NCBI RefSeq assembly: GCF_024223415.1
Contig: NZ_CP100500.1
Direction: 5' to 3' (one strand)
Source: Escherichia coli
GTDB taxonomy: Bacteria; Pseudomonadota; Gammaproteobacteria; Enterobacterales; Enterobacteriaceae
Length of the DNA stretch: 64,000 nt
How positions within the stretch are numbered: position 1 is the stretch's first letter; each line of letters opens with the position of its first letter. Of the stretch, positions 45,683-63,349 are shown in pieces. The notes beneath the pieces were generated by a model. The model worked only from the letters and a program-made list of their open reading frames with translations, had not been told where the DNA came from and did not search any database. Both the position numbers and the translations under genes were made by a program.

Positions 45683-45705
45683 ACAGATATCTAAATCCTG
45701 ACCTG

Positions 45706-46833
45706 TCAGAACTCAAAATTCACACCAGCATTCCACGATGCGGATGACCCACCTGCAGCAACTGCAACTTTTCCTGCCACATTCTCTGTGAAACGGTAGC
45801 CCACGCCCACCGCAATGGCCTGCTCATCACGGTAACCACCAACGGCTGCTGTCGCGTTAAATTTTCCAACACTGTATGGCTGGAAAAGACCGGCCAGTGC
45901 CGCGCTCTGGGCTGCACTCTCCCTTAACTCCTTCCGGTTCTCTTTAATCTGCTCCTGCATATTATTCATTCTCTCTGTCGCCATCTTCTGCCAGGCTTCC
46001 GTCAAATCCAGACGATGACTGTTATTCCTTATCGCTGCTGTATTTGAGGCTATTGCTGCATCCGTCTGCGCCCTGTTCTTCACAAGCACATCGCTGAGAT
46101 GTTCTGCCTGGCTTTTCACCTCGTTACGGACAGTACGCACACTGCTGTCTGTATATGTACGCGTCTCGTCCAGAACATCCGACTTCACCGCATCCGTGTA
46201 TTCCTGCGCAGAAGCCCTGGCAGCTGTAATATTACCGTTAAGTCTGTTTTCTGCCGATTCCACTCGACTCTTAGCATCAGCAACAGCATCACGGTAGACA
46301 GCTCCTATCTCACCGCGCAGGGCATCCCCCGACTCCCGTACAGCATCTGCAATGGCGTTGTCCATCTGTCCTTTTGTGGCCGCATCACTATCCTTAACAC
46401 CATCTGAAACATTTATAATCCGGCGGGTTTCCGGTGCACCATCAACTGAAAATCCATATCCTGAAGGACCGGCCCCTACAGAAAGTACATTGCTTTCTCC
46501 ATTCACCTGAGAGCCATACCCCAGAGCGACACTGTTGTCTGCATTAAAAACAGCTGTATTATTTCCCACAGCCATGGATTTATCCGCATCCCAAATTATT
46601 GCATCGGAACCAACAGCAAAGTTTTTTCCAGTAACACTACCATCACTGTTAAAATTTCCATTTCTGTCAACCACAGTTGCACTTTCAAGTGAATGAGTGC
46701 CATTATCAATCCAGATAATACCCGTCGATGACTCAGTAAGTGTTTTATGAGCCAAAGCCTGAGATGAGAGCAGCAGGGCCACACTCACTGCCAGCGCGCT
46801 TTTCTTTAAAAAAGCATCACGTCTTTTAAGCAT
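45706..46833 (-). CDS. trimeric autotransporter adhesin, Eib-like (E. coli immunoglobulin-binding protein family) candidate
   Basis: 375-aa product from MLKRRDAFLKKSALAVSVALLLSSQALA (signal peptide; SD AGGAG 9 nt upstream); coiled-coil stalk; C-terminal YadA-like anchor ...WNAGVNFEF; Eib genes are known prophage cargo; the ORF track extends 18 codons upstream. Confidence 0.7.
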   Translation of the reverse strand: MLKRRDAFLKKSALAVSVALLLSSQALAHKTLTESSTGIIWIDNGTHSLESATVVDRNGNFNSDGSVTGKNFAVGSDAIIWDADKSMAVGNNTAVFNADNSVALGYGSQVNGESNVLSVGAGPSGYGFSVDGAPETRRIINVSDGVKDSDAATKGQMDNAIADAVRESGDALRGEIGAVYRDAVADAKSRVESAENRLNGNITAARASAQEYTDAVKSDVLDETRTYTDSSVRTVRNEVKSQAEHLSDVLVKNRAQTDAAIASNTAAIRNNSHRLDLTEAWQKMATERMNNMQEQIKENRKELRESAAQSAALAGLFQPYSVGKFNATAAVGGYRDEQAIAVGVGYRFTENVAGKVAVAAGGSSASWNAGVNFEF

Positions 46834-47181
46834 TCTGTTATTCTCCTGTATTATTACTTCACCAGCCAGAACGGTAGTGCGGAGCAAAAATACAGTGATA
46901 AGAATCCTCTTTTATTAATTTAATAATATCAGGAATATTATTGTGTATAATATGCGCCCTCAATTTAAGCAGCAGAAAAGCAATGACGCGAAAATCATTA
47001 AAATACATAAAGATAAAACATCATAACTATAATTATAATAAGCGCGCTTATTTTAGCATCTGAACATTTAAAGTACTGCTATCACAAAACAATAAAAATC
47101 CTGGGTAATATCTCTGATGATTGAATGAGAAATTCACGATGTCTGGTGAGAATTCTGTTCAAAACGAGGAATGCAGACGTA

Positions 47182-47268
47182 CACGTGGCACGCACCACGT
47201 GATCCGTAGAAAAGCCTCTTGTTACGAATTTCGTAAACCGCACGTCTGTCTGGTCGTGCGGATTTTTT
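47182..47268 (+). other. three consecutive hairpins ending in an intrinsic terminator (candidate structured RNA 3' end)
   Basis: CACGTGG-cacgca-CCACGTG (47182-47201); perfect 15-bp palindrome TTACGAATTTCGTAA (47222-47236); CCGCACG-tctgtctggt-CGTGCGG + ATTTTTT (47238-47268). Confidence 0.45.
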
Positions 47269-47454
47269 ATCCGTCAACTTCACATGAAACCCGCCAGAGC
47301 ACTGTTTCCGGATTCAGACATCAGGCATATTATCATCCACAATATCGTGAACAAGATCACCTTTTTGCAATTCCTTTATTGATCGAAAGCAGTTAATCAC
47401 TGAAATTAATTACCGGAGTGAAAGCATTACTGCATAATAAATATAGATCCTTGC

Positions 47455-47488
47455 CCCCCTCTGACAGAATTTTCAGAGGGGTTTTTTT
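47455..47488 (+). terminator. strong plus-strand intrinsic terminator
   Basis: CCCCCTCTGA-cagaattt-TCAGAGGGGG followed by T7; plus-strand only. Confidence 0.65.
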
Positions 47489-47496
47489 TATCAGTT

Positions 47497-48072
47497 TCAC
47501 CATCCAACCCTGTACGCCAGAATGGTTTCACTGTCACTCAGTTCTGCTATTGCCTTTTTCATCTCCCTTTGCCTTATATGTATTTCAAGGCCTTTCCTGA
47601 ACATCGCTTTACCAGCAGCATCACTCAGGGATATCAGTTCATCTGCCGTCATCGGTACATCATTATTCTCTGCGTCCGTCCAGAAAAATCCTTCCGGCAA
47701 CACTCCGCCTCTGGCCGCTGATGCCGACATTCCAAGACGTGTCATGGCTTCCTTTCCATAATCCCATTTCCGTCCTCTGTGCTCAAAAACATACCCTGAC
47801 GCCTCCATCGCATCACGCCAGGCATTTATCTCCGCGTTTTTCATCCTGCGTGCTTCTTCCACAGCCATATCATCATTTGCCCGGTACTCACCTACCGGCC
47901 CTGCATCACCTCTTATGCAGGCTTCAAATATTTCACGACCGTAAGACTCAGGATCATCCGCACTTGCTGTAAATACACATTCTGTTTCCGCGTCTGAAAA
48001 CTTCACTATACAGTTTATGGTCGTATGACCCCTGTCAGCCCACACTGGTGACGTGATTTTATCGACCTTCAT
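47497..48072 (-). CDS. hypothetical phage protein at the tail-fibre-assembly (tfa) position
   Basis: 191-aa ORF immediately downstream of the stf-like gene with SD GGGGAGAAA; does not resemble lambda Tfa as far as I can recall; assignment is positional. Confidence 0.4.
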   Translation of the reverse strand: MKVDKITSPVWADRGHTTINCIVKFSDAETECVFTASADDPESYGREIFEACIRGDAGPVGEYRANDDMAVEEARRMKNAEINAWRDAMEASGYVFEHRGRKWDYGKEAMTRLGMSASAARGGVLPEGFFWTDAENNDVPMTADELISLSDAAGKAMFRKGLEIHIRQREMKKAIAELSDSETILAYRVGW

Positions 48073-48086
48073 TCATTTCTCCCCTG

Positions 48087-49892
48087 TCACCGTATTCTCT
48101 GAAACAGGCCCCAAATCGTCCCAATGATATTATTCACTGTCATGTTAGTTGTGCATAACATCCATGTACCAAGCATAGGATTGCCAAATAAAAAGCGGAT
48201 ATCTGTAAGTTTATCCGATGACGACGACACAATAACGGCCTGTCTGATACGATACCCGGGTATTTCACGGGTATTTGTTACCTCATGATTTCGTTCTATG
48301 ATCCCCAGAACATAAGACCCCACGGAATAAACACTTCCGACGCTCGCTGGCTGCCCCGGCTGTCCCTGTGGTCCTGCCGGGCCGCGTTCACCTGTATACC
48401 CTCTTGGCCCCTGAGGACCTGCCGGGCCGCGTTCACCTGTATCCCCCTTTAGTCCCTGTGGACCTGCCGGACCGCGTTCACCTGTATCGCCCTTTGGTCC
48501 CTGTGGACCACGCTCCCCCTGGGCTCCCAGCTCTTTCCATTCAGACCAGGGGCCATTACCGGTAAAATTACCAGTAACAGTTCTTACGAACTTTCGTGGT
48601 GGGTTCCAGGTTGTATATTCATGCTGGCAATATCCCCATGCACCAACTCTTACCTGAAGATAACCCGCTCTCTGAATCGGATAATTATTTTCTCGTGTAG
48701 CCCCACTGTCTGATGGCTGATAATAATCACCCTGATCGGTCACTCGTCCCAGTCGGTTCAGATCACCATTCAGCAGTTGTCCACGGGCTGACTCTCCTCT
48801 TGGTCCCTGAGGACCTGCCGGACCGCGTGCTCCTGTTTCACCTTTTGCTCCCTGTGGACCTGTCGGACCGCGTTCACCTGTTTCACCTTTTGGTCCCTGT
48901 GGTCCTGCCGGGCCGCGTTCACCTGTTTCACCCTTTGCTCCCTGTGGACCTTCCGGGCCACGTTCACCTGTATCCCCCTTTGGTCCCTGAGGACCTGCCG
49001 GGCCACGTTCACCTGTATCGCCCTTTGATCCCTGTGGACCTGCCGGGCCGCGTTCACCTGTATCCCCCTTTGGTCCCTGTGGACCTCCCGGATCTCCTTT
49101 ATCCCCCTTAGGGCCTTTTTCTCCTCGCTCACCCTTTTCTCCCTTCAGACCCTGAGGGCCTTCCGGACCACGTGCACCTGTTTCGCCCTTTGCTCCCTGT
49201 GGACCTGCCGGGCCGCGTTCACCTGTTTCGCCCTTTGCTCCCTGTGGACCTGCCGGGCCGCGTGCACCTGTTTCACCCTTTGGTCCCTGTGGACCTGCCG
49301 GGCCGCGTTCACCTGTATCGCCCTTTAGTCCCTGTGGACCTGCCGGACCGCGTTCACCTGTTTCACCTTTTGGTCCCTGTGGTCCTGCCGGGCCACGTGC
49401 TCCTGTTTCACCTTTTGGCCCCTGTGGCCCGGTAATGCCTCTTTCACCACGAGCGCCGGTATCCCCTTTCTCTCCTCGTGGTCCCCGGGCAGATGCTGCT
49501 CGTTTCCGGGCTTCCTCCGCCTCAGATGCCGCGGACTCTGCTCTGTGCAGTATGGACTGCACCACAGCCTCCAGCTCTGACAACGCCTTCGGATAATAAG
49601 GAGCATCTTCCAGCTCCATCAGAAATTTATTCAGTGTTCCCGGTGAAGAATCCTCCCTGACCACGATATCTCCCACATACGAAGGACGGTAACCTTCTGT
49701 ATTGAGTGTCACCCTGTATATTCCTGGCTCCACATCCATACTGTAACTCCCCGTCTCTTCCGGCATGCCATAAGCCACTGTCGTGGCGATGACTGTCTCG
49801 CTGGTTCTCTTCGCTTTCAGCTCAATAATGCATCCCGGTACCGGTTTTCCGGTTCCGTCCCTCAGCACGCCTGAAATTTTTACAGCCGCCAT
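48087..49892 (-). CDS. stf: side tail fibre protein (Stf-like) with collagen-like G-X-Y repeats
   Basis: 601-aa ORF; N-terminus [18 protein letters not shown]... resembles lambda Stf N-domain; two long blocks of GPxGxKGxTGxRG repeats; distinct C-terminal domain. Confidence 0.8.
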
Positions 49893-50231: not shown

Positions 50232-50894
50232 TCAGTACGCATCATAAATTTCTGCATTTATGTAATAACAGAGGTTATTAACAACACCTGAATTATCATT
50301 GGGCGCCGCTACGTTATCTTCAGCAAAAGTTGACTGACGCCATAACTGTGAGTTTCTGGCATTAAAACTGGCGGTATACCAGTAATAACTCTCCCCTTCC
50401 TGAACTGTCGTCCACTGGGTACACCCCGGCATTACGGCCACATCATGTCCCACACTGATCGGTACATCCTTTTCCCATATTCGCGTCATTTTTACTTCCA
50501 GTGGCAGCATTTCCGTGTTCCAGACCACCCTGCCATGACTGTCGCACAACTGTATTCCCCATTGCGGCCATACATTCACCATGTTGGCAAAAACATAAAC
50601 AACATATGTGCTGTCCTGTTCCATGCCCGGCTCCTGCCCTGTACCAGCGCTGAAAATGTCATACTGCCAGGTACCGTTAAGCTGAACCATTTCACCATGG
50701 AAGGACTGATTACCGCTTATCTGTTTAATAAAAATCACGCAACGATAATTCGTCGGCACCCCAGTGTCGATAAACTGCATCACCGCATCACGCGCACTCA
50801 GTGTGAAATGAAAACGGCGCACAAGGTTCAGTGGCGGCGCAACAGGTGATATCCATTCTCTCCCCCGCTCATCAGTTAATTTAAGTGCAAACAT
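50232..50894 (-). CDS. hypothetical tail-associated protein
   Basis: 220-aa ORF; start ATG overlaps stop of upstream 86-aa ORF (ATGA). Confidence 0.55.
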   Translation of the reverse strand: MFALKLTDERGREWISPVAPPLNLVRRFHFTLSARDAVMQFIDTGVPTNYRCVIFIKQISGNQSFHGEMVQLNGTWQYDIFSAGTGQEPGMEQDSTYVVYVFANMVNVWPQWGIQLCDSHGRVVWNTEMLPLEVKMTRIWEKDVPISVGHDVAVMPGCTQWTTVQEGESYYWYTASFNARNSQLWRQSTFAEDNVAAPNDNSGVVNNLCYYINAEIYDAY

Positions 50895-51154
50895 CAGATC
50901 CCCCTTATCATGACCAGCACGGGTCTTAACCAGCTTGTGTTGGCATAGTGCACTGTCCAGCCGGATACACTGGCACTGGTATGACTTCCCTGACCGTTAA
51001 TCAGAATGGCCGGTGAACAGACTTCCAGACGCCAGCCCTGCAAAGGAGTATAAGAACGCTGCCCCGTCCCTTCAGTGATCACATCCAGCACCCCTGTTGG
51101 GTTTATTTCATGTGTCACAAGGCGCCCTTTGCGCCATACCCGGACTCCGAACAT
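50894..51154 (-). CDS. hypothetical small protein coupled to J
   Basis: 86-aa ORF; start overlaps J stop (TAATG). Confidence 0.5.
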   Translation of the reverse strand: MFGVRVWRKGRLVTHEINPTGVLDVITEGTGQRSYTPLQGWRLEVCSPAILINGQGSHTSASVSGWTVHYANTSWLRPVLVMIRGI

Positions 51155-54100
51155 TACAGTCTCCCCAGTCGTACTCTTAACACATTGTTATCGTCATATA
51201 CGTCGATTCGCTCGCCATTGAAAAACAGGCGGCCTGCGCCGGGCCTTCCTGAGTTAATTTCAAGGCTGCCGTTTCTTGATAAACGCCACCCCGGACTACC
51301 GGAATGAAAATTATCTGACCGGATATCTCCCGTCACTCTGGCAAAATCCACGGTCAGTTTTTTCATGAAAACATCATTCATGAACAGCTGATCACCCTGA
51401 GCCACAAACAAAGGTGTTGTATTGCCATTTTCCGGGTTAATCATCGCAATACGATCTGCCTGCATCAGGATCTGACTCTGAATTCCGTCAGACGTATTTT
51501 CGATTCCGGCACCAATACCTGCAATATAGAGACGTCCATCCCGTGTCTGCTGCAGCTTCACAGCCCACATGCTGTTCAGGTTCCGGCGCGTGTCCTCCTG
51601 AACTTTCTGTATCTGCTCAATGCTGGCATTCCAGGATCCCAGTTTTTTATCCGTGCTCTGTGTGATCTGACTTCCCTTATCATCAACATACTGTCTGATC
51701 TGCGCTATCTGTCGGCTGTTCTCCTCCGTGCTCCTGCTTACTGTCTGCCGGATTTCGCTTCCCATCCTGTCAACTTTTCTGTCAACTTCCGCAATGGCCA
51801 TTGACTGTTCAGCGCTCTTTTTCGCCACAACAGTACTTATTTGCGCACTTTTATCATCAACATACTGCCTGACCTGCGCTATCTGTCGGCTGTTCTCCTC
51901 CGTGCTCCTGCTCACTGTCTGCCGGATTTCACTGCTCACGCTGTCAACTTTCCTGTCGACTTTCGCAATGGCCAGCGACTGTTCACCGCTCTTTTTCGCC
52001 ACCAGTTCCGTTATGCTGTTTTCAGACGCCGTGATTTTTTTCGTCACCTCTGCGATATCACGCTCCGCACGCTGCCTCACATCTTTCTCCAGCTGCGTCA
52101 TTTCGCGGTTAATCGCATTCTCCAGTTGCTCAACTTCAGTGCGCCGTGCAGAGGCATCAATGCGTTCATTGATCTCCCGTCCCAGATGCGTTTTATTTAT
52201 CGCCCCCCTGAAAAAATTAAGGTAACCGGCAGGATCATTACTCGCCCGACCGACTGCCTCCACGAATGCCGATTTACCGACAGTGTTAACACTGCGGATA
52301 TAAAAGTAATAATCATGGCCAGGTTTAATATTCTGGCCGGAGACAAGCCACTGACTTCCGGTACCAAGATAACGGGCTGTGGTTTCAACCTGCCTGATAT
52401 CGGTAATCCGCGTTTCCGAGAACCAGAACTCAAACTGTACCGTCGGATCGTAAACCGCAAGATGCGGCGTGGCGGTTATCTGAAAATAGCCCGGCGTCAG
52501 CTCAATCCGCGACGGCGCTGCCGGTGCGGCAATCCGGAACGATACCGACGCCGGGTCTCCCTGCTGCCCCCGGGCATTTACTGCCCGGACTGTCAGCCTG
52601 TAGTTCCCCGGCGCCAGCTGCCTGAAGCGGTATGTGGTTTCCGTCGTCCGGGCCGTGCTGACCAGCCGCTCACTGCCATCATCCGCGGCCACGGTCAGGC
52701 GAAGCAGGAAGCTCACGCCCTTCACCACCTTCGGCGTGTCCCAGCGCGCCAGCACCTGATATTCCCCGCTGTCTGCGGTGACTTCTGCGGTCAGGTGCTG
52801 CACCGCTGGCGGCGTGACACCATTCACCGTTCCGCTCTGGTCGCCGTCAAAGTGCGCCCCGTTATCCACGATGGCCTCTTTTTCCGGTACATGCTGCACG
52901 GCAGTGATGGCATACGTGCCGTCGTCGTTCTCACGGATACTCACGCAGCGGAACAGGCGCTGGCGCAGCGTCGGCAGCTTCAGCCCCCACACGCTGTACT
53001 CGGCAACGCCGTCAGGAACCCGGCTCACTTTTACCTTCACGCCGTCGGTGACGGACTGAACCTCCACGCTGACCGGATTGCCACTTCCGTCAACCAGACT
53101 TATCAGCGTGGTACCGGAGGATGGCAGCGTGATTTCACGGTCGAGCGTCAGCGTCCGGGTCTGGCTGTTCACCGCCAGCACACGACCACCGGTGCTGATA
53201 CCGGCATAGTCATCATCACAGATTTCAATGACATCGCCCGGTACATGGCGAAGCCCTTCAGCACCCACGCTGAAATCCACGGTCTGCGTCTCCAGCAGTT
53301 CTGTTTTAATCAGCCACAGCCCGGCGCGGTGTGCCTGCCCCCGGCTGGTACAGCCAAAGGCATCCATCTTCGTGACGTTACGACCGTAACGGGCAATGGC
53401 CTGCGTGTCCTCCACAAGCTCTGTCGCCGTCTCCTGGCCGTTATCCGGGTCACTCCAGTTCACCTCAACGGCATTATGGCGGTCCTTCAGGGCGCTGAAG
53501 CTGTAGCGGAACGGCGCGCCATCATCCGGCATCACCACATTACTGCGGTTATAGGTCCACACCTTATCCGACGGTCGGTCCTGCACGAACGTCAGCGTCT
53601 GCCCGTTCCATACCGGCATACAGCGCATCGCCGAGCAGAAATCACTGAGCACATCCCACGCCTTACGCTGCCTGGTCAGCCAGGCATTACAGGTGATGCG
53701 CGGCTCCGTGCCACCAGAGCCGTCCGGCACCGACTGGTCGCAGTACTGGCCGATGACATACAGCGCCCATTTGTCCACATCCGCTGCGCCAACACGTTTC
53801 CCCATGCCGTAGCGCGGGTGGGTCAGCATATCCCACAGACACCAGGCCGGGTTATCGCTGTATGCCGGTTTAAACGTTCCGTCCCAGATACCGCTGTATT
53901 GCCGCGTCTGCGGGTTATAGTTCGACGGCACCTGCAGAATGCGCCCGCGAAGATGATAATTACGGCTCACCTGCTGGCTGCCGAACTGCTCCGAATCCAC
54001 CTGCACACCGACCAGTGCCGTGTTCGGGTAGCACTGTTTCACATCGATGATTTCGGTGTATGACGACCAGAGCGTTTTGTTCTGCAGCTGGTCTGTGGTG

Positions 54101-54663
54101 CTGTCCGGCGTCATCCTGCGCATCCGGATACTGAACGGGCGCGGCGGCAGGTTACCCACCACCACCGGGGCCAGATACTGCGAGGTGGTTTTGCCCTTAA
54201 TGGTGATGTCTTTTTCCGTTAACCAGCGACCGTTACGCTGTATCTGAACCAGCAGGCGGACTTCCGACGGATTCCGGTCCCCCTTTGAGGTGGTTTCCAC
54301 CAGTGCCTGCACACCGAAGGTCAGGCGCAGACGGTCGATGTTTGCCGACGTGATGGTCCGGGTAATCGGCGTGTCGTACTTCACTTCCGTACCCAGCACC
54401 GTCTCGGAGCCGGAGGATTCAAATCCCTCCGGCGGCGTCTGCTCCTGCTCACCGGCCCGGAATACCACCGTGACGCCGGATATATTGGTATTCCCCTCAC
54501 TGTCCAGCACCGGCGTACCGTTCAGCAGCACGCTTTTTAATCCATCCACCGGTCCTTGTATCGGCCCTTCGCTGATGACATCGATCACACTCAGCAACTG
54601 CGTGGACTTCAGGTTGTCCTTCGCTTCGCGCGGGGTATGCCCCTTACTGCTGCCTTTACCCAT
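51154..54663 (-). CDS. J: tail tip / host specificity protein J (central fibre), variant C-terminus
   Basis: 1169-aa ORF; N-terminal ~900 aa match lambda gpJ as I recall it ([24 protein letters not shown]...); C-terminal ~270 aa differ and include two 58-aa tandem repeats. Confidence 0.92.
51678..52025. repeat. 174-bp tandem duplication inside J
   Basis: Two adjacent ~174-bp copies (starting 51678 and 51852), ~90% identical, encoding [20 protein letters not shown]... Confidence 0.8.
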
Positions 54664-54679
54664 TCCTCACACTCCATAA

Positions 54680-54706
54680 ACAACAAAGCCGCCCAAAAGG
54701 CGGCTC
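54680..54706 (-). terminator. intrinsic terminator-like hairpin downstream of moron lipoprotein gene
   Basis: Minus strand: AGCCGCC-ttttg-GGCGGCT followed by TTGTTGTTTAT, just upstream of the J ribosome binding site. Confidence 0.5.
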
Positions 54707-54729
54707 ATGAGTTACGGCAGGATTAACTA

Positions 54730-55068
54730 TTATTTACATGCATTAACACTATCAGCAAAAATTTTTGGCGTTAATGCTGGTACGCGTTCATAAAGAGTAA
54801 AACTACTGCCATTTCCTGCTTTTTTGATATCAAGCACAACATCATACCCACCCATAGCCTGTGGAACTAAAAGGCTTACCCCATTCTCAATAGGAATGGA
54901 TGTTATAGGTGTTCCATTACCAGCCCATTGTCTGGATATGCAGCCTGACAATTCATCAATATTTTTTAATGAATTACCTTCCATTACAGGCTTGCCGGAT
55001 TTTACGTAATCCAAAGATTTACATCCTGTTAAGGCAATAATCGTGCAGAATAAAATCGTTTTGTTCAT
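54730..55068 (-). CDS. AT-rich moron lipoprotein inserted between tail genes I and J
   Basis: 112-aa product from MNKTILFCTIIALTGC (lipobox LTGC); markedly AT-rich versus flanking genes; own promoter-like AT-rich upstream region and downstream hairpin. Confidence 0.65.
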   Translation of the reverse strand: MNKTILFCTIIALTGCKSLDYVKSGKPVMEGNSLKNIDELSGCISRQWAGNGTPITSIPIENGVSLLVPQAMGGYDVVLDIKKAGNGSSFTLYERVPALTPKIFADSVNACK

Positions 55069-55140
55069 ATAGCTAACCAACAGAATAATTATCAGTGTTC
55101 GATATAAATATTAAATCAGTTAGAACATGAGTAAATAATA

Positions 55141-55782
55141 TTACCGCCCAATTACCACAACCTGACCACCATCCCCTTCATCTGCCGTGCTAATCTCCTG
55201 AGATGCCACACGTGACCCCACGCGCATTTCACCGTACAGAACAGGCAGGACATTGCCCTGGGCAACCATGTTATCCAATGAGGAAAAATAGGTATTTTGC
55301 TTACCGTTATCAGTGGCTGACACTTTAGGCGTTTTGGCTTTCGGTGCCAGCATCTGCGCAACACCGCCTAAAACCATACCTGCCCCAAGAGAGAACATGA
55401 GATTACTTGCAACAATACTAAGCCCCGGCATCCAGATTGCCGTAGCAATTAGCGCCGCACCCAGCACTGCCTGAAAAATACCGCCACTTTTGGCACCCGC
55501 CAGACGCGGTACGATGTGGATCACGGCACCATTTGCCAGCGGCTCATTAAGACGGGCAGATAATTCGTTTTCGCCTGCATCACGCCCGGCAATGCGCACC
55601 TGATACCAGCCGTCATTCAGTTTCTGACGAAACGCCGGGAGCTGTGTGGCCAGTGCCCGGATGGCTTCAGCCCCCGTTTTCACACGAAGGTCGATGCGGC
55701 GGCCAAATCGTTGCAAATCCCCGTAAAGGCAGATGCGTGCCATGCCCGGTGACGCCTGAGGGAGTGTGTGCGTCGCTGCCAT
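55141..55782 (-). CDS. I: tail assembly protein I
   Basis: 213-aa ORF similar to lambda gpI; follows K with overlap. Confidence 0.88.
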   Translation of the reverse strand: MAATHTLPQASPGMARICLYGDLQRFGRRIDLRVKTGAEAIRALATQLPAFRQKLNDGWYQVRIAGRDAGENELSARLNEPLANGAVIHIVPRLAGAKSGGIFQAVLGAALIATAIWMPGLSIVASNLMFSLGAGMVLGGVAQMLAPKAKTPKVSATDNGKQNTYFSSLDNMVAQGNVLPVLYGEMRVGSRVASQEISTADEGDGGQVVVIGR

Positions 55783-56423
55783 TTGTCGGTGTACCTCTCT
55801 CGTTTGCTAAGTTGTTCAGGAATATGGTGCAGCAGCCCGCCGTCGCCGCAGTAAATGGCGGCATGATTCGGCACCGATGAACCAAAACAGCACAGCAGCA
55901 CGTCGCCGGGCTGCGCCTCTGTCAGTGCGACACGGTAAAAACCAGTCGCCTCCATATTGTCAAGATAGAGATTCTGACCGTTACGCCACCAGTCATCCCC
56001 GCGATGAAAATCCGGCATCTCAATTCCCGCCAGATGGTAAGCATCCCGGAACAGCGTGTAACAGTCCGTCACCCCGTGCTCAAAGCACCGCCCGGTGAGA
56101 TGCGGCACACAGCGGAACTTGTGAATCGCCCCCCGGCAGACCAGCCACCACGGCAAATCACTCTGCACCTGCAGCCGCCGGTCGGCCTCACTCAGCCAGG
56201 GCAGACCACCGGGGTGACTGTGGACCAGTGCCACAATCTCACCCTGCATTTCTGCCTGCAGCCAGTCCTCCGGCGACATCCGGAAATACGCCTCCGGCTC
56301 ACCGGAGATATTCACGCAGGGGAAATATCTTTCCCCCTCCGGCGCTCTCACCACGAAGCCGCACGACTCCGCTGGCGCACATCGCCGGGCGTGCGCCAGA
56401 ATCGCTGATTCTGTCTCTGTCAT
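55680..56423 (-). CDS. K: tail assembly protein K (NlpC/P60 + JAB-like)
   Basis: Product from MTETESAILAHARRCAPAESCGFV..., matching lambda gpK as recalled; the ORF track extends upstream. Confidence 0.88.
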   Translation of the reverse strand: MTETESAILAHARRCAPAESCGFVVRAPEGERYFPCVNISGEPEAYFRMSPEDWLQAEMQGEIVALVHSHPGGLPWLSEADRRLQVQSDLPWWLVCRGAIHKFRCVPHLTGRCFEHGVTDCYTLFRDAYHLAGIEMPDFHRGDDWWRNGQNLYLDNMEATGFYRVALTEAQPGDVLLCCFGSSVPNHAAIYCGDGGLLHHIPEQLSKRERYTDKWQRRTHSLRRHRAWHASAFTGICNDLAAASTFV

Positions 56424-56427
56424 GGAA

Positions 56428-57126
56428 TTACTGCGAAAGTTTGTGAATGGAAAGAAAACCGCCAAAGTTGCCGACGTTATTGCGAAACTTACAGCCGCTC
56501 AGGCATTTGCTGCATTTATCCTTCGTGATATCGGACGTCGGCTGATCATATTCATCCGCGACCGCCGGACCGCTATAACCGCACTCATCGCCGCGATAGG
56601 TCCAGGTGCAGGTGTTGGCCAGCATGATACGTCCCGGAAAAACAGCGCCGTCCGTTTCCGTCGGCGTGGCCAGTACAAAGGTCGCGCTGACCGCTGTCAA
56701 ATCACTGCACTGCTCGATGCGCCAGCGGCTGATAACCTCCTGCTCCGGATCGGCGTCACTGTTTCCGTTGACGAAGTTCACCGCATCCAGAAAACGGGCA
56801 TAAACTTTACGCCGGACCACCGTTCCGCCGACCAGACTCTGCATATCTTCCACCATACCGGTGACCATACCGTACAGGTTAGAAACCGTCAGCGTGGGGC
56901 GCGTACTGGTGCCTTTGCCATTCAGTTCAAAACCACTCCCCTGAATGGGATACGGCTGATACTGTCGCCCCTGCCAGGTGACCGGCTCACCTTTTTCGTT
57001 CTGCTCATTACAGAAAAAATAACGTTCTCCACCGACCTCTGTCAGATCGATTTCCCAGAGCACCACGCTGGCCGACTGCTCCGCACGGGTGCATTCATTC
57101 AGTGTTTCCTGCCGGATATCCTGCAT
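56428..57126 (-). CDS. L: minor tail protein L
   Basis: 232-aa ORF MQDIRQETLNECTRAEQSASVVLWEIDL..., lambda gpL length and sequence as recalled. Confidence 0.92.
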   Translation of the reverse strand: MQDIRQETLNECTRAEQSASVVLWEIDLTEVGGERYFFCNEQNEKGEPVTWQGRQYQPYPIQGSGFELNGKGTSTRPTLTVSNLYGMVTGMVEDMQSLVGGTVVRRKVYARFLDAVNFVNGNSDADPEQEVISRWRIEQCSDLTAVSATFVLATPTETDGAVFPGRIMLANTCTWTYRGDECGYSGPAVADEYDQPTSDITKDKCSKCLSGCKFRNNVGNFGGFLSIHKLSQ

Positions 57127-57455
57127 CAGTTCACCACCTGTTCAAACTCTGCGCTGAACTCAACACGCAGCATACTGACCCGCGACGACCATTTTGCGCA
57201 GGTCACCTTTATCTGCCGCCACTCATAAGGCGGCGTCCACAGAAAGGATTTCCAGCCCCCGTGCTCTTCCAGAAACGACTCCAGTACCGTGGCCTCCTCA
57301 CGGGGGACAGAAAGCGTCACGCTGTACGTTTTCAGGTTGGCATTCAGCCCGGCAGGCGCTCGCTGGGAATAGCCATCACCAAAGCGCACCTTTCTTACAG
57401 AAGGGACCGAAGCCACATCCATACCGGGTTTCACTTTCCAGCGGAAGGTTTTCAT
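57126..57455 (-). CDS. M: minor tail protein M
   Basis: 109-aa ORF, lambda gpM length; overlaps L start. Confidence 0.9.
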   Translation of the reverse strand: MKTFRWKVKPGMDVASVPSVRKVRFGDGYSQRAPAGLNANLKTYSVTLSVPREEATVLESFLEEHGGWKSFLWTPPYEWRQIKVTCAKWSSRVSMLRVEFSAEFEQVVN

Positions 57456-60013
57456 CGTCCACCTCCGGAGAACAGACCACCATCACGCATCTGTGTCTGA
57501 ATTTCATCACGGGCACCCTTGCGGGCCATGTCATACACCGCCTTCAGCATCTGTGGACCTGGCAGACCATTCGTACCGTCGTTCTGAATCACCACGTTGT
57601 TGTTCTGCTCAAACCTGATACCCTCTGAACGCCGCATTTGTGCCGGACTTCCGGTGCCACCGACATAACCACCAGTGGCATAGCCGCGCATCAGCCGGTA
57701 GAGATTTCCCACGCCAATCCGGCTGGTTGCCTCCTTCGTGAAGACAAACTCACCACGGTGAACAATCCCCGCTGGCTCATATTTGCCGCCGGTTCCCGTA
57801 AATCCCCCGGTCGCAAAATGGAATTTTGCCGCAGCAGCCTGAATGGCTGTACCGCCTGACACTGATGCGCCACCACCGGCAGCACCGCCAATGACGCTGC
57901 CGATACTCCCGACAATCCCCACCATTGCCTGCTTAAGCAGAATTTCTGTCATCATGGACAGCACGGAACGGGTGAAGCTGCGCCAGTTCTGCTCACTGCC
58001 GGTCAGCATCGCCGCCATATTCTGTGCAATTCCATCAAAGGTCTGCGTGGCTGCACTTTTTACCTGCGACATACTGTCCGTGGCGCTCTCTTCCCACTCA
58101 CTCCAGCCGGACTTCAGGCCTGCCATCCAGTTCCCGCGAAGCTGGTCTTCAGCCGCCCAGGTCTTTTTCTGCTCTGACATGACGTTATTCAGCGCCAGCG
58201 GATTATCGCCATACTGTTCCTTCAGGCGCTGTTCCGTGGCTTCCCGTTCTGTCTGCCGGTCAGTCAGCCCCCGGCTTTTCGCATCAATGGCGGCCCGTTT
58301 TGCCCGTTGCTGCTGTGCGAATTTATCCGCCTGCTGCGCCAGCGCGTTCAGGCGCTCCTGATACGTAACCTTGTCGCCAAGTGCAGCCAGCTGGCGTTTG
58401 TACTCCAGCGTCTCATCTTTATGCGCCAGCAGGGATTTCTCCTGTGCAGACAGCTGGCGACGTTGCGCCGCCTCCTCCAGTACCGCGAACTGACTCTCCG
58501 CCTTCCACAAATCCCGGCGCTGCTGGCTGATTTTCTCATTTGCTCCGGCATGCTTCTCCAGCGTCCGGAGTTCTGCCTGAAGCGTCAGCAGGGCGGCATG
58601 AGCACTGTCTTCCTGACGATCGCCCGCAGACACCTTCACGCCGGACTGTTTCGGCTTTTTCAGCGTCGCTTCATAATCCTTTTTCGCCGCCGCCATCAGC
58701 GTGTTGTAATCTGCCTGCAGGATTTTTCCGTCTTTCAGTGCCTTGTTCAGTTCTTCCTGACGGGCGGTATATTTCTCCAGCGGTGTCTGCAGGCGTTCGT
58801 AAGCCTTCTGCGCCTCTTCGGTATATTTCAGCCGTGACGCTTCGGTATCGCTCTGCTGCTGCGCATTTTTGTCCTGTTGACTCTGCTGCTCAGCCTTCTT
58901 TCGGGCGGCTTCAAGCGCAAGACGGGCCTTTTCACGATCATCCCAGTAACGCGCCCGCGCTTCATCGTTAACAAAATAATCATCCTTGCGCAGATTCCAG
59001 ATATCGTCCGCTTTCTTAAACGCGGCCTCTGCCTTAATCAGCATCTCCTGCGCGGTATCAGGACGACCAGTATCCAGCACCGCATCCCACATGGATTTGA
59101 ATGCCCGTGCTGTCCTGTCTGCCCAGGTTTCCAGCGTGCCCATGTTCTCTTTCAGGCGGCGGGTCTGGTCATCAAACCCTTTCGTTGCGGCCTCGTTCGC
59201 CGCCTGCAATGCCCCTGCCTCATCGCCGGAACGCTGCAACTGAGCAACATACGCAATCTGCTCCGCCGTCACGTTATGGAACTGGCGCGCCATCGCCGTC
59301 AGCCCCGACGTCGGGTCTGTGGTCAGCTTCCCGAAGGCTTCAGCGACCTTGTCCACCTCCACGCCGGATGCAGAGGAGAAACGCGCCACACTCTGGCTGA
59401 TGGACGCAATCTGAGCCTCACCGCTTACCCCCGCCTTAACCAGTGCGCTGAGTGACTCGCTGGTCTGGTTAAACGTCAGCCCTGCCGCCTGCCCGGCTCT
59501 GGACAGGACCAGCATACGATCTGCCGTCAGTCCCGCCTGATTGCCGGAAAGGACCAGCGTTTTGTTGAAATCGGACAGGGTTGAGTTGCCCTGATACCAG
59601 GCATACGCCAGCGCACCGGTCGCCACCGCCAGCGAGGTGGCCCCGACCATCGGCAGGGTGATCGCACCGGCAAGCCCCCTGAACATGGGGATCATCCCGC
59701 CGAAGGAGTCCTTCACCTGACCACCCTGTTGCAGCAGGATCAGCCACGGACTCTGCCCGCCTGCAAGCTGTGTGGCCACGTCGGTGAACTGTGCAGGCAG
59801 CATACGCATGGCGGCTTTATACTGTCCGACGGAAATCCCCGCTTTCTGTGCAGCCAGCGCCTGCCGGTTCATTGACTGTTCAACGACTGCCGCTGTTTTT
59901 TTCGCATCACTTTCCGTACCGGAAAAATGACGCCTGACTCTGGCCATCTGCTCGTCAAACCTGGCCGCATCCAGACTTAAATCAACGACCAGATCGCCTA
60001 CCGGTTCAGCCAT
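57452..60013 (-). CDS. H: tail tape measure protein H
   Basis: 853-aa ORF, same length as lambda gpH; matches recalled sequence over most of its length. Confidence 0.93.
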   Translation of the reverse strand: MAEPVGDLVVDLSLDAARFDEQMARVRRHFSGTESDAKKTAAVVEQSMNRQALAAQKAGISVGQYKAAMRMLPAQFTDVATQLAGGQSPWLILLQQGGQVKDSFGGMIPMFRGLAGAITLPMVGATSLAVATGALAYAWYQGNSTLSDFNKTLVLSGNQAGLTADRMLVLSRAGQAAGLTFNQTSESLSALVKAGVSGEAQIASISQSVARFSSASGVEVDKVAEAFGKLTTDPTSGLTAMARQFHNVTAEQIAYVAQLQRSGDEAGALQAANEAATKGFDDQTRRLKENMGTLETWADRTARAFKSMWDAVLDTGRPDTAQEMLIKAEAAFKKADDIWNLRKDDYFVNDEARARYWDDREKARLALEAARKKAEQQSQQDKNAQQQSDTEASRLKYTEEAQKAYERLQTPLEKYTARQEELNKALKDGKILQADYNTLMAAAKKDYEATLKKPKQSGVKVSAGDRQEDSAHAALLTLQAELRTLEKHAGANEKISQQRRDLWKAESQFAVLEEAAQRRQLSAQEKSLLAHKDETLEYKRQLAALGDKVTYQERLNALAQQADKFAQQQRAKRAAIDAKSRGLTDRQTEREATEQRLKEQYGDNPLALNNVMSEQKKTWAAEDQLRGNWMAGLKSGWSEWEESATDSMSQVKSAATQTFDGIAQNMAAMLTGSEQNWRSFTRSVLSMMTEILLKQAMVGIVGSIGSVIGGAAGGGASVSGGTAIQAAAAKFHFATGGFTGTGGKYEPAGIVHRGEFVFTKEATSRIGVGNLYRLMRGYATGGYVGGTGSPAQMRRSEGIRFEQNNNVVIQNDGTNGLPGPQMLKAVYDMARKGARDEIQTQMRDGGLFSGGGR

Positions 60014-60440
60014 ACCGGACTCCTCCTGCGATCCCTTCTGATACTGTCATCAGCATTACGTCATCCTCCGTCATGTCCGCCACATCCGGGGATGCAGGGA
60101 TAACTTCATTCCCGTCCGGGCCAAAGCGGACGCCTCCGGCAAGCCCTGCCGCTTTCTGCATCAGCACATCATCTTCAGGCTCTTCGTCAGCCTCGCGCCG
60201 GTTCAGCAGACTGAAATCCAGCGGATGCATATCCGGATCGCTGAAAAACAGGCTGAGCACGGTGTACGTCAGCCCGGAAAAGTGCATATCCAGCAGAACA
60301 TCATGAAAATAATGGGTACTGTAAAAGCGGTGCCAGTCGGCATACTCCGTGGATGACATCCCGGCAAGCATGGCGCGCCAGTCGGGTCGCCCCATCTCAC
60401 GCGCCAGTTTCAGGGCAAAACTCAGCTCACCGTCGAACAC
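60006..60440 (-). CDS. T: tail assembly chaperone T segment (expressed as G-T fusion by -1 frameshift)
   Basis: 144-aa ORF MFDGELSFALKLAREMGRPDWRAMLAG..., lambda gpT-like; overlaps 3' end of G in the -1 frame. Confidence 0.88.
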   Translation of the reverse strand: MFDGELSFALKLAREMGRPDWRAMLAGMSSTEYADWHRFYSTHYFHDVLLDMHFSGLTYTVLSLFFSDPDMHPLDFSLLNRREADEEPEDDVLMQKAAGLAGGVRFGPDGNEVIPASPDVADMTEDDVMLMTVSEGIAGGVRYG

Positions 60441-60844
60441 TTTCCCGCAGAAACAGGCTCTGCAGGCCCGGCGTCATCTGCCTGTTCAGGGGCATTATTC
60501 ACAACAAACTCAGACATTCCGGACAGACGTAACACCACGTTTTCAGCCTGAGCAATTGCCTCCGTGGGCCAGGTGGTAAGCACTTCCTGCTCAATCTGCG
60601 TAATGGCTTCATTCATGGGCAGCAGCTTTGTCTTCTGCGGATGGTTATGCCACAGAGACATCGCCACCAGAAACGCCCCGCCTCTGATAAGATCCTCTAC
60701 AGACACCTGCAGGTTGCCACTGGATTCAGCCTTTTTTTCCTGCTCTTTCAACCAGGCAAGATGCTCAATACGCTGCAGGGCTGACAGTTCAGAAAGCGTG
60801 ACGGTCACGCCGTTATGTTCAAATGATTCGTTTTTCAGGAACAT
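60422..60844 (-). CDS. G: tail assembly chaperone G
   Basis: 140-aa ORF, lambda gpG length. Confidence 0.9.
   Translation of the reverse strand: MFLKNESFEHNGVTVTLSELSALQRIEHLAWLKEQEKKAESSGNLQVSVEDLIRGGAFLVAMSLWHNHPQKTKLLPMNEAITQIEQEVLTTWPTEAIAQAENVVLRLSGMSEFVVNNAPEQADDAGPAEPVSAGKCSTVS
60440..60446 (-). other. G-T programmed -1 ribosomal frameshift slippery site
   Basis: GGGAAAG heptamer on the minus strand, a few codons before the G stop, as in lambda. Confidence 0.8.
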
Positions 60845-60859
60845 CGCTGACTCTCCGGA

Positions 60860-61600
60860 TTAACTGGCGGTGACGTTGATTTCTGCAACCGCAGCAAGTT
60901 CACCATTACCGGATACGACCGGAATGTTGACCCTGCCTGCAGCAACGCCCTTCACGGTGATGGTCATACCACTGACCGACACGGTGGCTTTTGTTTTATC
61001 CGCAGACACCGCACGGAAGCTCTTGTCGGTTGCGCCTTCCGGCTGGAATGCCACGGTCAGCGTGGTGCTCTGCCCTTTCACCACCGAGGTGCTGGCAGGC
61101 GTCACGGTCATGCCGGTTGCCGCTGTTAGCGTGCTGCGATCTTCTGCCATCGACGGACGTCCCACGTTGGTGACTTTCACCGTGCGGGTGATCACTTCCT
61201 TCGCTGTCACCGCCTTACCGATGCTGCTGACCCAGCCGCGGAACACATCGACCGTGCCGTTCGGGAAGCGGATTTTATAGGCACGGGTATCACCTTCATT
61301 AAACCACGCCAGCAGCGCCTGCTGCCCCTGCTCTCCGGGCATCCACGCCAGCGTGAAGCTGGTATCTCCGGCGGATTTCTGCCCCTGTCCGGTCGCGGCC
61401 CAGTCCGAATCTTCATCATCGAGATAGCTGTCGTCATAGAAATCTGCGGTCAGTTCGCCGGGCGTCAGGTCTTTAACTTTAGCCAGACGCGACCAGTCAT
61501 TGTCTGAAAGCGGGTTCGCATAAGGGTCACCGTTCCCCTTATAAACCCACAGTGTGGTCCCGGCCCCTTTCACCGGTGCCAGAGGATTTGGTGTTGGCAT
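60860..61600 (-). CDS. V: major tail protein V
   Basis: 246-aa product from [22 protein letters not shown]...; C-terminal Ig-like domain; the ORF track extends 10 codons upstream. Confidence 0.93.
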
Positions 61601-61607
61601 ATCGTCC

Positions 61608-62003
61608 TCACATTTCATAGGTAATGACATAAGTCAGATCGGCTGAACTCCACAGGCCCGCATCATCGTCGCGCCGGTAGTCATAGCCACTGGCCACCAT
61701 ACTGGTGATCAAATCTGACAGTGCCGGGATATCGCTCATCACCGGATAAATCCGGGACTCCATCCACGAATCCAGCTCTGAATCCGGCACCTGAGCAGGC
61801 AGGAAAACTTCAATATGCAGCTCCGCCTGCCAGGTATCGCTGTCCAGCTCTTCGCCCGTGTATTCAGCGCCGGTGAGATAAACGGCAACTGCCGGAAAAT
61901 CCGCCTCATCAAAAACAGCGGGGCGACCATCAAAAAACGTCGCCCCGGTGTCATGCTTCTCCAGTGCATCCAGTACGGCTGTACGGATATCAGTATTTTT
62001 CAT
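61608..62003 (-). CDS. U: tail terminator protein U
   Basis: 131-aa ORF, lambda gpU length. Confidence 0.92.
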
Positions 62004-62575
62004 CGCTTTATCACAATCCTCAGTTGTTGTTTCAGCGCATAGCTCAGTTCTTTTGGCAGACGTTCGCGTCGGATACGGTTAACGTTCTCATCAAAAGCCT
62101 GTTTCAGTGGGGCCGACATCGGAATTTTCACCACCTGAATGGGAAGACGATTACGCTTTTTCCTTCCCTTATCGTCATTGCCCTTCGCATACCTGGCTTC
62201 TGGCAGACGTTGCATAACATGCCAGCGCCCATTATTCAGTCGCTGGATGAATGCCCGCTGATAACGATGCTGACCGGCTTTGAGTATGCTGTTCGGGCGA
62301 CGTCCCAGCATCCTGATCCCCAGCTTAATCACAGGAAGATCGCCGCGGTTAACGATAATTTTTGCGTTCGGATTTCTGACCGTAGCCCGTTTCAGTCTGG
62401 ATCGCTCTTTAACAAGTTTTCTCGGCACCCGGGTTTCACGGGCGACCTGAGACGAAGACTGATTAATCGCCGTTGTGGCCACGCGGTTAATGGCCATTGC
62501 GGCGGCACCAGGCACCGCCGTTCTGCTGATACGGCTGAGGTTTTCAACGGCCTGCTCAAGACCCTGTATGGCCAT
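62000..62575 (-). CDS. Z: tail completion protein Z
   Basis: 191-aa ORF MAIQGLEQAVENLSRISRTAVPGAAAMAINRV..., lambda gpZ-like. Confidence 0.9.
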   Translation of the reverse strand: MAIQGLEQAVENLSRISRTAVPGAAAMAINRVATTAINQSSSQVARETRVPRKLVKERSRLKRATVRNPNAKIIVNRGDLPVIKLGIRMLGRRPNSILKAGQHRYQRAFIQRLNNGRWHVMQRLPEARYAKGNDDKGRKKRNRLPIQVVKIPMSAPLKQAFDENVNRIRRERLPKELSYALKQQLRIVIKR

Positions 62576-62586
62576 ACATCCCCCTT

Positions 62587-62949
62587 TCAGCGGCGACGAT
62601 TAACGGCAGGCGGTACGCCCCGCCCAAGCCAGAGATGACAGCTTCCGCCATCATCCGGCGAAACCCGGTCTATCCAGAAGTTTTCCTCACCGATGGTCAG
62701 CGTGTCTCCACGCCGCAGTTGCCGCACATCATCAGTCCGGACAAACAGGGACGGGCTGGAGCCTTCAACGCGCACGCCCTGTCCGGCATAGCTGATATTT
62801 TCAGGGTCATCAAAAACACCACGTATTACTGCGCCGGGCTGCTCACCGGATGTAATGGTGGCTGACGTTCCCATATGCCCGCGTATCGTTTCATCAGCCC
62901 GGGCAATGGCTGTATCAAAACCGTTATCCCTGATATTAATAACTTTCAT
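62587..62949 (-). CDS. FII: head-tail connector protein FII
   Basis: C-terminal ~100 aa match lambda gpFII as recalled (...AIARADETIRGHMGTSATITSGEQ...); N-terminus differs; the ORF track extends upstream. Confidence 0.85.
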   Translation of the reverse strand: MKVINIRDNGFDTAIARADETIRGHMGTSATITSGEQPGAVIRGVFDDPENISYAGQGVRVEGSSPSLFVRTDDVRQLRRGDTLTIGEENFWIDRVSPDDGGSCHLWLGRGVPPAVNRRR

Positions 62950-63298
62950 CTGTAACAAGCCCCTCCAGGACAAGTTCCGCAACATTCACTGGATCAACTC
63001 TGACAGTCATACCTGTAACAACAATCTCCATATCACTGTCATCATGCGGATGTTTTCCCGCCACATGCAGGGTTTTGAGTACACGAACAGTGCTCATTTC
63101 ATCCCCGCCAGTGGAGTGGCTATACGTCATCAAATGCCTTTCGTTCTCATCACTCTCCTGGTTTTTGTCCTCTGCTTCCTCTTCCCATTCCGCCACCCGC
63201 TGCGCTATCTCTGCGGCACTCCCGGATATATCCGGCTCACGCCCCAGAATCAGGGCCAGTTCATCAAGCCGTTTCAGATTTTGCTCTTTCGTTGCCAT
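62936..63298 (-). CDS. FI: DNA packaging / head assembly protein FI-like
   Basis: ~120-aa product from MATKEQNLKRLDELA... at the lambda FI position; sequence diverged from lambda FI. Confidence 0.7.
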   Translation of the reverse strand: MATKEQNLKRLDELALILGREPDISGSAAEIAQRVAEWEEEAEDKNQESDENERHLMTYSHSTGGDEMSTVRVLKTLHVAGKHPHDDSDMEIVVTGMTVRVDPVNVAELVLEGLVTDESY

Positions 63299-63349
63299 AT
63301 CAGCCCCCTGTGAAAAAAGACACGGGGGCATTTCGCCCCCGCTCACGGA

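What the first reader, a model, noticed from the sequence alone, without database searches (positions are those of the whole stretch)
60420..60450. Conserved G-T -1 programmed frameshift site
The slippery heptamer GGGAAAG sits a few codons before the G stop, with the T frame open in -1, exactly as in lambda. This confirms that T is made only as a G-T fusion and that the tail chaperone module is intact.
Basis: partly seen in the sequence, partly recalled or inferred. Interest (0 to 1): 0.2.

Follow-up and report, generated by a model that had tools for sequence, protein, structure and literature searches.

The report
Lambda-type G-T tail chaperone frameshift site
This is the well-known ribosome slip site of phage lambda's tail-assembly genes G and T, sitting intact in a lambda-like prophage of an E. 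coli chromosome; it is real but entirely ordinary.

Summary
GGGAAAG occupies 60446..60440 (-) and reads CTTTCCC on the plus strand. It is in X XXY YYZ register with G (60844..60422, 140 aa), at GGA = codon 134 and AAG = codon 135, five codons before the G stop. The -1 frame is closed until 60474, then open for 155 codons to the T stop (60008..60006). A -1 slip gives a 279-aa G-T fusion. The heptamer alone is not significant (8 copies in the window, 7.6 expected). Its context is what counts: the region is 93% identical to lambda G-T, with no base difference from lambda for 87 nt around the site. T is 100% and G 81% identical to lambda's proteins, and both NCBIfam equivalogs score far above cut-off. 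In 77 of 78 related viral contigs the heptamer sits in the same register and at the same distance from the stop. In 27 of 74 relatives the first -1 codon is not a start codon, yet the T peptide is conserved from that codon. This supports "T only as a fusion", but the sequence cannot prove it; that rests on lambda experiments. Z, U, V, G, T, H, M, L, K, I and J are all full length. No stimulatory RNA structure is supported. Already known; low interest.

The parts
60440..60446 (-). Slippery heptamer G GGA AAG (X XXY YYZ), codons 134-135 of G
   Evidence: no difference from lambda; present in register in 77/78 relatives
60422..60844 (-). Gene G, tail assembly chaperone, 140 aa; stop TGA at 60424..60422, five codons after the heptamer
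   Evidence: PF06894 E=2e-51; TIGR01674 184.6 bits against cut-off 74.45; 81% aa identity to lambda G
60425..60473 (-). G/-1 frame overlap: the only 49 nt in which a -1 shift can join G to T (-1 frame stop at 60476..60474 upstream, G stop downstream)
   Evidence: 15 in-register slots
60006..60440 (-). T reading frame (-1 relative to G): 144 codons from the Z base of the heptamer to the stop at 60008..60006. It is translated as the C-terminal part of the 279-aa G-T fusion (G codons 1-135, 60844..60440, then base 60440 read again)
   Evidence: PF06223; TIGR01715 185.8 bits against cut-off 77.35; 100% aa identity to lambda T; third-position bias of variable sites in this frame
57452..60013 (-). 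Gene H, tape measure protein (853 aa), the partner bound by G and by the G part of GT; its start overlaps the T stop
   Evidence: 96.7% aa identity to lambda H
60860..61600 (-). Gene V, major tail tube protein, the partner recruited by the T domain. The mechanical ORF runs to 61630; the lambda-like start is at 61600
   Evidence: 93.9% aa identity to lambda V over 246 aa

Best explanation
This is the programmed -1 ribosomal frameshift site of the lambda-type tail assembly chaperone genes G and T, in a lambdoid prophage on the minus strand of an E. coli chromosome. Most ribosomes translating G read ...GCG GGA AAG UGU UCG ACG GUG AGC UGA and release the 140-aa gpG. A small fraction (about 4% in lambda) slip back one base when tRNA-Gly and tRNA-Lys sit on GGA and AAG. 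The tRNAs re-pair with GGG and AAA, and the ribosome continues in the -1 frame with GUG UUC GAC... for 144 more codons, which gives the 279-aa gpGT. By the lambda model, gpG and the G part of gpGT coat the tape measure protein H, and the T part recruits the tube protein V. Neither chaperone stays in the finished tail, and the G:GT ratio of about 30:1 is needed for correct assembly. Shown here: the heptamer, its register, the frame geometry, homology to lambda, conservation across relatives, coding constraint in the -1 frame, and the lack of a credible independent start for T. Inferred from lambda experiments: that slippage happens, its rate, and the roles of the proteins.
For: Geometry. Homology: the DNA is 93.3-93.5% identical to lambda, and there is no base difference at 60463..60376, the stretch that holds the site. 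T is 100% and G 81% identical to lambda's proteins. Pfam PF06894 and PF06223 and NCBIfam equivalogs TIGR01674 and TIGR01715 are met. PHROG 32165, a 290-position profile, matches G at positions 1-142 and T at 140-285, so that family is modelled on fused GT proteins. Synteny V-G-T-H is as in lambda. Conservation: 77/78 IMG/VR relatives with 67-98% G identity carry GGGAAAG in register, 5 codons before the G stop, with a long -1 ORF, even where the sequence upstream of TCTGC is unrelated (TGATGATGATTTT...). T-frame coding: variable sites at codon positions 1/2/3 number 6/10/22 of about 58 each, p=0.0008. No own start: in 27 of 74 relatives the first -1 codon is GTC, GCC or GTT, and in that group the T frame opens only 5 codons upstream of it. 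Anti-SD pairing for every T-frame start candidate is -1.5 to -3.4 kcal/mol, against -5.9 to -10.8 for Z, U, V, G, H, M and L. Literature: lambda slippery sequence GGGAAAG and 0 frame kept about 96% of the time (PMC3296357); 30:1 ratio, and G binds H while T binds V (PMC5009743); G_GGA_AAG and the role of tRNA-Lys mnm5s2U (PMC7618472).
Against: There is no direct evidence of expression or slippage for this prophage, and the window ends inside the capsid gene E, so inducibility of the prophage is unknown. The window does have a GTG at the first -1 codon, so independent initiation cannot be excluded from this sequence alone. No stimulatory RNA element is supported: the fold z-score is -1.36 and there are no compensatory changes. 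That is consistent with a low-efficiency site but adds no positive evidence.
Confidence: 0.95

Rival explanations
1. T is an ordinary separate gene that starts at the GTG (60440..60438) inside the heptamer, as GenBank and RefSeq records annotate it, and the heptamer is incidental.
For: A GTG is present at the first -1 codon in the window and in 47 of 74 relatives. Lambda J02459, PhiR46_1 and PGAP on E. coli B771 all list T as a stand-alone CDS from that GTG.
Against: Anti-SD pairing upstream of this GTG is only -3.4 kcal/mol with a 2-nt spacing, weaker than at all seven neighbouring real starts. In 27 of 74 relatives the codon is GTC, GCC or GTT, which cannot initiate, while the encoded V/A-FDGEL... 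is conserved. In that group the T frame is closed by TGA TGA TGA five codons upstream. Published lambda work attributes T-frame expression to frameshifting.
Confidence: 0.03
2. The site is an intact-looking relic in a defective prophage, so it is never translated and has no present function.
For: The window covers only the tail half of the prophage and stops inside gene E, so the head, lysis, replication and immunity regions are unseen. Lambdoid tail regions are very common in E. coli: this 8-kb query matched 4435 of 5426 genomes, with a median of 2 places per genome. Some relatives are damaged (L021 has G cut to 124 aa; L040 has a T part of 103 aa).
Against: Every tail gene from Z to J is full length against lambda, with no frame breaks, and T differs from lambda only by 4 synonymous changes. 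This reading concerns activity, not identity: the element would still be the G-T slip site.
Confidence: 0.12
3. The G-to-T frame change is produced by RNA polymerase slippage (transcriptional realignment) on the A run, not by the ribosome.
For: The heptamer contains short homopolymer runs (GGG, AAA).
Against: From established knowledge, productive transcriptional slippage needs runs of roughly 7 or more A or T, and here the runs are 3 nt. The X XXY YYZ register is strictly conserved with respect to the G frame. That is what tandem tRNA re-pairing requires, and it would be irrelevant for polymerase slippage. The dependence of the lambda G:GT ratio on tRNA-Lys U34 modification also points to the ribosome (PMC3296357).
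Confidence: 0.01

Closest known systems
Bacteriophage lambda G / G-T tail assembly chaperone -1 programmed ribosomal frameshift (Levin, Hendrix & Casjens 1993; Xu, Hendrix & Duda 2004, 2013, 2014)
   Same: The heptamer is the same (G GGA AAG), in the same register and at the same distance (5 codons) from the G stop. There is no base difference from lambda at 60463..60376, around the site. The T protein is identical, the fusion is the same 279 aa, and the V-G-T-H gene order is the same.
   Different: G is a diverged allele: 81% aa identity, with 54 of the 58 nucleotide differences in the 871-nt region lying in G upstream of 60464. A G-to-T change at 60476 creates a -1-frame TGA that shortens the G/T overlap from 61 to 49 nt, a variant shared with about 20 relatives. 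Neither difference touches the slip site.
Lambdoid phages and prophages of E. coli (HK630, 434, PhiR46_1, Turner and others)
   Same: The G-T region is 93.5-98.7% identical, with the same site. The closest phage records are Turner and PhiR46_1 at 98.7%.
   Different: No record in the phage collection is identical. Across 8 kb of tail genes the best E. coli chromosome match is 97.9%. This is ordinary lambdoid mosaicism.
G-T-like frameshifts of other long-tailed phages (for example TP901-1, which also uses GGGAAAG)
   Same: The logic is the same: two overlapping chaperone ORFs lie between the major tail gene and the tape measure gene and are joined by a -1 slip (PMC4493119; PMC5009743).
   Different: Those proteins share little or no sequence similarity with lambda G and T. 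The present element is a close sequence homologue of lambda's, not merely an analogue.
E. coli dnaX -1 frameshift (A AAA AAG)
   Same: A -1 slip with tRNA-Lys on an AAG codon in the A site (established knowledge).
   Different: dnaX is driven to about 50% by an upstream SD-like element and a downstream hairpin. Here no upstream SD-like element is conserved (the upstream sequence differs completely between subgroups) and no downstream structure is supported. This fits a low-efficiency site.

Membership tests
Lambda-type G/GT tail assembly chaperone with -1 PRF | Two overlapping ORFs located between the major tail (tube) gene and the tape measure gene | tested here: met
   The order V (60860..61600) - G - T - H (57452..60013) lies on the minus strand. 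Pfam assignments and one-to-one matches to lambda genes support it.
Lambda-type G/GT tail assembly chaperone with -1 PRF | The upstream ORF is a gpG homologue | tested here: met
   PF06894 E=2.1e-51; TIGR01674 equivalog 184.6 bits against cut-off 74.45; 81% identity to lambda G over 140/140 aa.
Lambda-type G/GT tail assembly chaperone with -1 PRF | The downstream ORF is a gpT homologue, in the -1 frame relative to G, overlapping the 3' end of G | tested here: met
   Frame analysis; PF06223; TIGR01715 equivalog 185.8 bits against cut-off 77.35; 100% identity to lambda T.
Lambda-type G/GT tail assembly chaperone with -1 PRF | A slippery heptamer X XXY YYZ in the G register inside the overlap, upstream of the G stop | tested here: met
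   G GGA AAG at 60446..60440, codons 134-135, with the stop 5 codons later.
Lambda-type G/GT tail assembly chaperone with -1 PRF | The slip site is conserved in relatives despite divergence of the flanking coding sequence | tested here: met
   77/78 IMG/VR loci with a complete G (67-98% aa identity) have it in the same register and at the same distance. TCTGCGGGAAAG is invariant while the upstream sequence is unrelated between subgroups.
Lambda-type G/GT tail assembly chaperone with -1 PRF | The T frame has no translation start of its own (T is made only as a fusion) | tested here: inconclusive
   The window has a GTG at the first -1 codon, so the sequence alone cannot exclude initiation. Against it: the weakest anti-SD pairing among local starts, and GTC/GCC/GTT in 27 of 74 relatives with the peptide conserved from that codon. 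Direct proof exists only for lambda, in the literature.
Lambda-type G/GT tail assembly chaperone with -1 PRF | Frameshifting actually occurs at a few percent and yields the G-T fusion needed for tail assembly | not testable with these tools
   This needs protein or ribosome-profiling data from this lysogen. The lambda values (about 4%, 30:1) come from PMC3296357 and PMC5009743.

The most novel reading that the evidence does not exclude
The predicted helix that starts 8 nt 3' of the heptamer (60432..60425 paired with 60369..60362, enclosing a GC-rich hairpin at 60406..60371) could be a weak, conserved stimulator that tunes the G:GT ratio. The lambda site is generally treated as working without a strong stimulator. 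The spacing is canonical, and every observed substitution in these helices keeps pairing through one-sided G-U/G-C changes, apart from two sequences that lose one pair of the inner hairpin. But there are no compensatory double changes, the single-sequence fold is not better than shuffles (z=-1.36), and the same bases are constrained by T coding.
Probability: 0.08. Interest if true: 0.2.

Novelty: already known. Interest (0 to 1): 0.04.

Why it matters
It matters little as a discovery. The G-T frameshift of lambda has been a textbook case of recoding since 1993, and this copy has no base difference from lambda around the site. Its practical value is for annotation. It marks the V-G-T-H tail module of this prophage as undamaged. 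It also shows that the stand-alone 'T' CDS given by GenBank and PGAP records for this region should be a joined G-T feature with ribosomal slippage. The comparative data here give a simple sequence-only argument for that correction: 27 of 74 relatives have no possible start codon at the annotated T start.

Tried and rejected
(1) Significance of the heptamer as a motif: rejected, because there are 8 copies against 7.6 expected. Only its register and frame context are informative.

(2) Downstream stimulatory RNA structure: the single-sequence fold has z=-1.36, with 19 of 200 shuffles folding as well. An RNAalifold run on 13 distinct relatives gives 0 of 27 pairs with compensatory change and a covariation term of -0.76. 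The structure is not supported.

(3) Upstream SD-like stimulator as in dnaX: the sequence upstream of TCTGC is unrelated between subgroups, so nothing is conserved there.

(4) Rfam scan of the whole window: no family lies at or near the site, only host sRNAs and the cspA element elsewhere.

(5) Independent start for T at the GTG or at internal ATGs: poor anti-SD pairing and non-conservation of the GTG.

(6) An ungapped codon-position tally over 300 nt was invalid beyond about +205 because of an indel in the divergent subgroup, so it was redone on offsets 25..199.

(7) Reading Xu et al. 2013 (PMC3762263) failed because the paper is not held. Statements on lambda experiments therefore rest on reviews and papers that cite it.

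Full report
**1. What is in the sequence**

The genes in this part of the window run on the minus strand. Read on that strand, the stretch is ...CCT GTT TCT GCG GGA AAG TGT TCG ACG GTG AGC TGA.

- GGGAAAG occupies 60446..60440 (-). The plus strand shows CTTTCCC at 60440..60446.
- The ORF that contains it starts with ATG at 60844 and ends with TGA at 60424..60422 (140 aa).
- Counting from 60844, GGA is codon 134 and AAG is codon 135. The heptamer is therefore in the X XXY YYZ phase needed for tandem -1 re-pairing, and five codons (C S T V S) separate it from the stop.
- In the -1 frame the last upstream stop is at 60476..60474 and the next is at 60008..60006, so 155 codons are open.
- A -1 shift can join the two frames only within the 49 nt from 60473 to 60425, and the heptamer lies there.
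- Re-reading base 60440 gives GTG TTC GAC..., that is VFDGELSFALK..., for 144 codons. The fusion is 279 aa.

**2. Is it more than chance?**

As a bare motif it is not: 8 copies occur in the window against 7.59 +/- 2.55 expected. In context it clearly is.

- Only 15 in-register slots exist in the overlap. About 0.07 heptamers of the form XXXYYYZ and about 0.001 copies of GGGAAAG are expected there by chance.
- Of the eight copies, only this one combines a long 0-frame ORF upstream (138 codons), a 0-frame stop close by (5 codons) and a long -1 extension (144 codons).

The decisive argument is homology, not statistics.

**3. Identity**

- The 871 nt from 60860 to 59990 match 109 phage records. 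They are 93.5% identical to lambda J02459 9695-10565 and 98.7% identical to phages Turner and PhiR46_1.
- An alignment of 141 nt around the site with lambda, HK630 and PhiR46_1 is invariant from 26 nt upstream of the heptamer to the end of the alignment, 58 nt downstream.
- Base by base against lambda, 54 of the 58 differences lie in G upstream of 60464. There are none between 60463 and 60376. The four in T are synonymous.
- T is 100% identical to lambda T and G is 81% identical to lambda G.
- G hits PF06894 (E=2e-51) and T hits PF06223.
- The conceptual fusion hits the NCBIfam equivalogs TIGR01674 (lambda G) and TIGR01715 (lambda T) at more than twice their cut-offs.
- PHROG 32165, a 290-position profile, is matched by G at positions 1-142 and by T at 140-285, so it is a family built on fused GT proteins.
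- The neighbours are V (tube), U and Z upstream, and H (tape measure), M, L, K, I and J downstream. All are full length against lambda.

**4. Context**

- The window is E. coli chromosome. The left 44 kb carries host genes (ruvC, yebC, nudB, aspS, yecD) and host sRNAs.
- A lambdoid prophage begins next to yecD and runs off the right end of the window inside the capsid gene E.
- The tail region matches 4435 of 5426 complete E. coli genomes, with the best match at 97.9% over 8 kb.

**5. Conservation of the site**

I fetched 80 related loci from IMG/VR using the G protein as query. For each I located the G frame by tblastn, without using the heptamer as an anchor.

- 77 of the 78 loci with a complete G (67-98% aa identity) have GGGAAAG in register, five codons before the G stop, with a long -1 ORF.
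- The exception, L021, keeps the site but has G cut to 124 aa.
- In the most divergent subgroup (G of 143 aa) the sequence upstream is quite different (TGATGATGATTTT-TCTGCGGGAAAG), yet TCTGCGGGAAAG is unchanged.

**6. Is T made only as a fusion?**

Sequence cannot prove this, but three results bear on it.

- In 27 of 74 relatives the first -1 codon is GTC, GCC or GTT rather than GTG. None of these can initiate, yet the peptide V/A-FDGEL.FAL.LAREMGRPDW is conserved from exactly that codon. In that subgroup the T frame is closed by TGA TGA TGA only five codons upstream of it.
- In the window, pairing with the anti-Shine-Dalgarno sequence upstream of the GTG and of the three early in-frame ATGs is -1.5 to -3.4 kcal/mol. 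It is -5.9 to -10.8 for the starts of Z, U, V, G, H, M and L.
- Variable sites in the first 175 nt after the G stop fall mainly on T-frame third positions (6, 10 and 22 of about 58 each; p=0.0008). The -1 frame is therefore under coding constraint directly after the overlap.

Database records nevertheless list T as a separate CDS from the GTG. HK630 calls the product 'GT' but gives only the T coordinates.

**7. Mechanism**

The following comes from the literature on lambda.

- The slippery sequence is GGGAAAG, and the 0 frame is kept about 96% of the time (PMC3296357).
- The gpG:gpGT ratio of about 30:1 is critical for assembly, and neither protein is in the virion.
- G and the G part of GT bind the tape measure protein, while the T domain binds the major tail protein (PMC5009743).
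- Hypomodified tRNA-Lys (mnm5s2U34) slips more on G_GGA_AAG (PMC7618472).

I looked for stimulators and found none that is supported.

- The 107 nt from the heptamer onward fold no better than shuffles (z=-1.36).
- A consensus fold of 13 distinct relatives has no compensatory pair changes.
- Nothing upstream is conserved between subgroups.
- A helix that starts 8 nt after the heptamer (60432..60425 with 60369..60362) has canonical spacing, but its conservation is explained equally well by T coding.

Transcriptional slippage is unlikely because the runs are only 3 nt long, and because the conserved codon register matters only for the ribosome.

**8. Verdict**

The element is the already known lambda G-T frameshift site, with no base difference from lambda around the slip site, in an ordinary lambdoid prophage. 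Interest is low. The only practical lesson concerns annotation of T as a joined G-T feature.

Noticed in passing
window 60006..60440 (-); L001, L003, L004: GenBank and RefSeq records (lambda J02459, PhiR46_1, PGAP on E. coli B771) annotate T as a stand-alone CDS starting at the GTG inside the heptamer, with no ribosomal-slippage join. HK630 names the product 'GT' but gives only the T coordinates.
   Followed up: yes
window 51154..63346 (-): The tail and head-tail genes are a strong mosaic relative to lambda. Amino-acid identities are T and M 100%, L 97%, H 96.7%, U 96%, FII 95%, V 94%, K 93%, G 81%, I 78%, Z 63% and FI 28%. The switch from diverged G to lambda-like T falls about 20 nt upstream of the slip site (last difference at 60464).
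   Followed up: partly
window 60474..60476 (-): A T where lambda has G (Asp for Glu in G) creates a TGA in the -1 frame. This shortens the G/T overlap from 61 to 49 nt. About 20 related loci share the variant, and it lies upstream of the slip site, so it should be harmless.
   Followed up: yes
window 51154..54663 (-): J is 1169 aa against 1132 in lambda. It is 93% identical up to residue 836 and then diverges (56% over a short stretch), although a Phage_Tail_Tip domain is still present at 1015-1140. This suggests a receptor specificity different from lambda's.
   Followed up: no
window 50232..50894 (-): In the position of lom downstream of J there is a 220-aa ORF with no lambda lom similarity and no Pfam hit.
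   Followed up: no
window 45190..49892 (-): The distal prophage end carries several genes: a collagen-repeat side tail fibre (48087..49892), a DUF4376 protein (47497..48072), a YadA-like trimeric autotransporter adhesin (45706..46887) and a small protein with a sigma-70 region-4-like HTH (45190..45645). Host yecD and aspS follow.
   Followed up: no
window 15912..16056 (both strands); window 1..421 (-): Rfam finds the overlapping host sRNAs SraC/RyeA (+) and SdsR/RyeB (-), and a complete cspA thermoregulator at the left edge of the window.
   Followed up: no
L021, L040, L060: Some related viral contigs carry damaged copies. L021 keeps the slip site but G is cut to 124 aa. L040 has a T part of only 103 aa. 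L060 diverges abruptly about 84 nt after the heptamer, with an early -1 stop.
   Followed up: partly
window 60362..60432 (-): A predicted helix (60432..60425 with 60369..60362) starts 8 nt 3' of the heptamer and encloses a GC-rich hairpin (60406..60371). Nearly all substitutions in relatives are one-sided and keep pairing; two sequences lose one pair of the inner hairpin. There is no compensatory change and the fold is not better than shuffles.
   Followed up: yes
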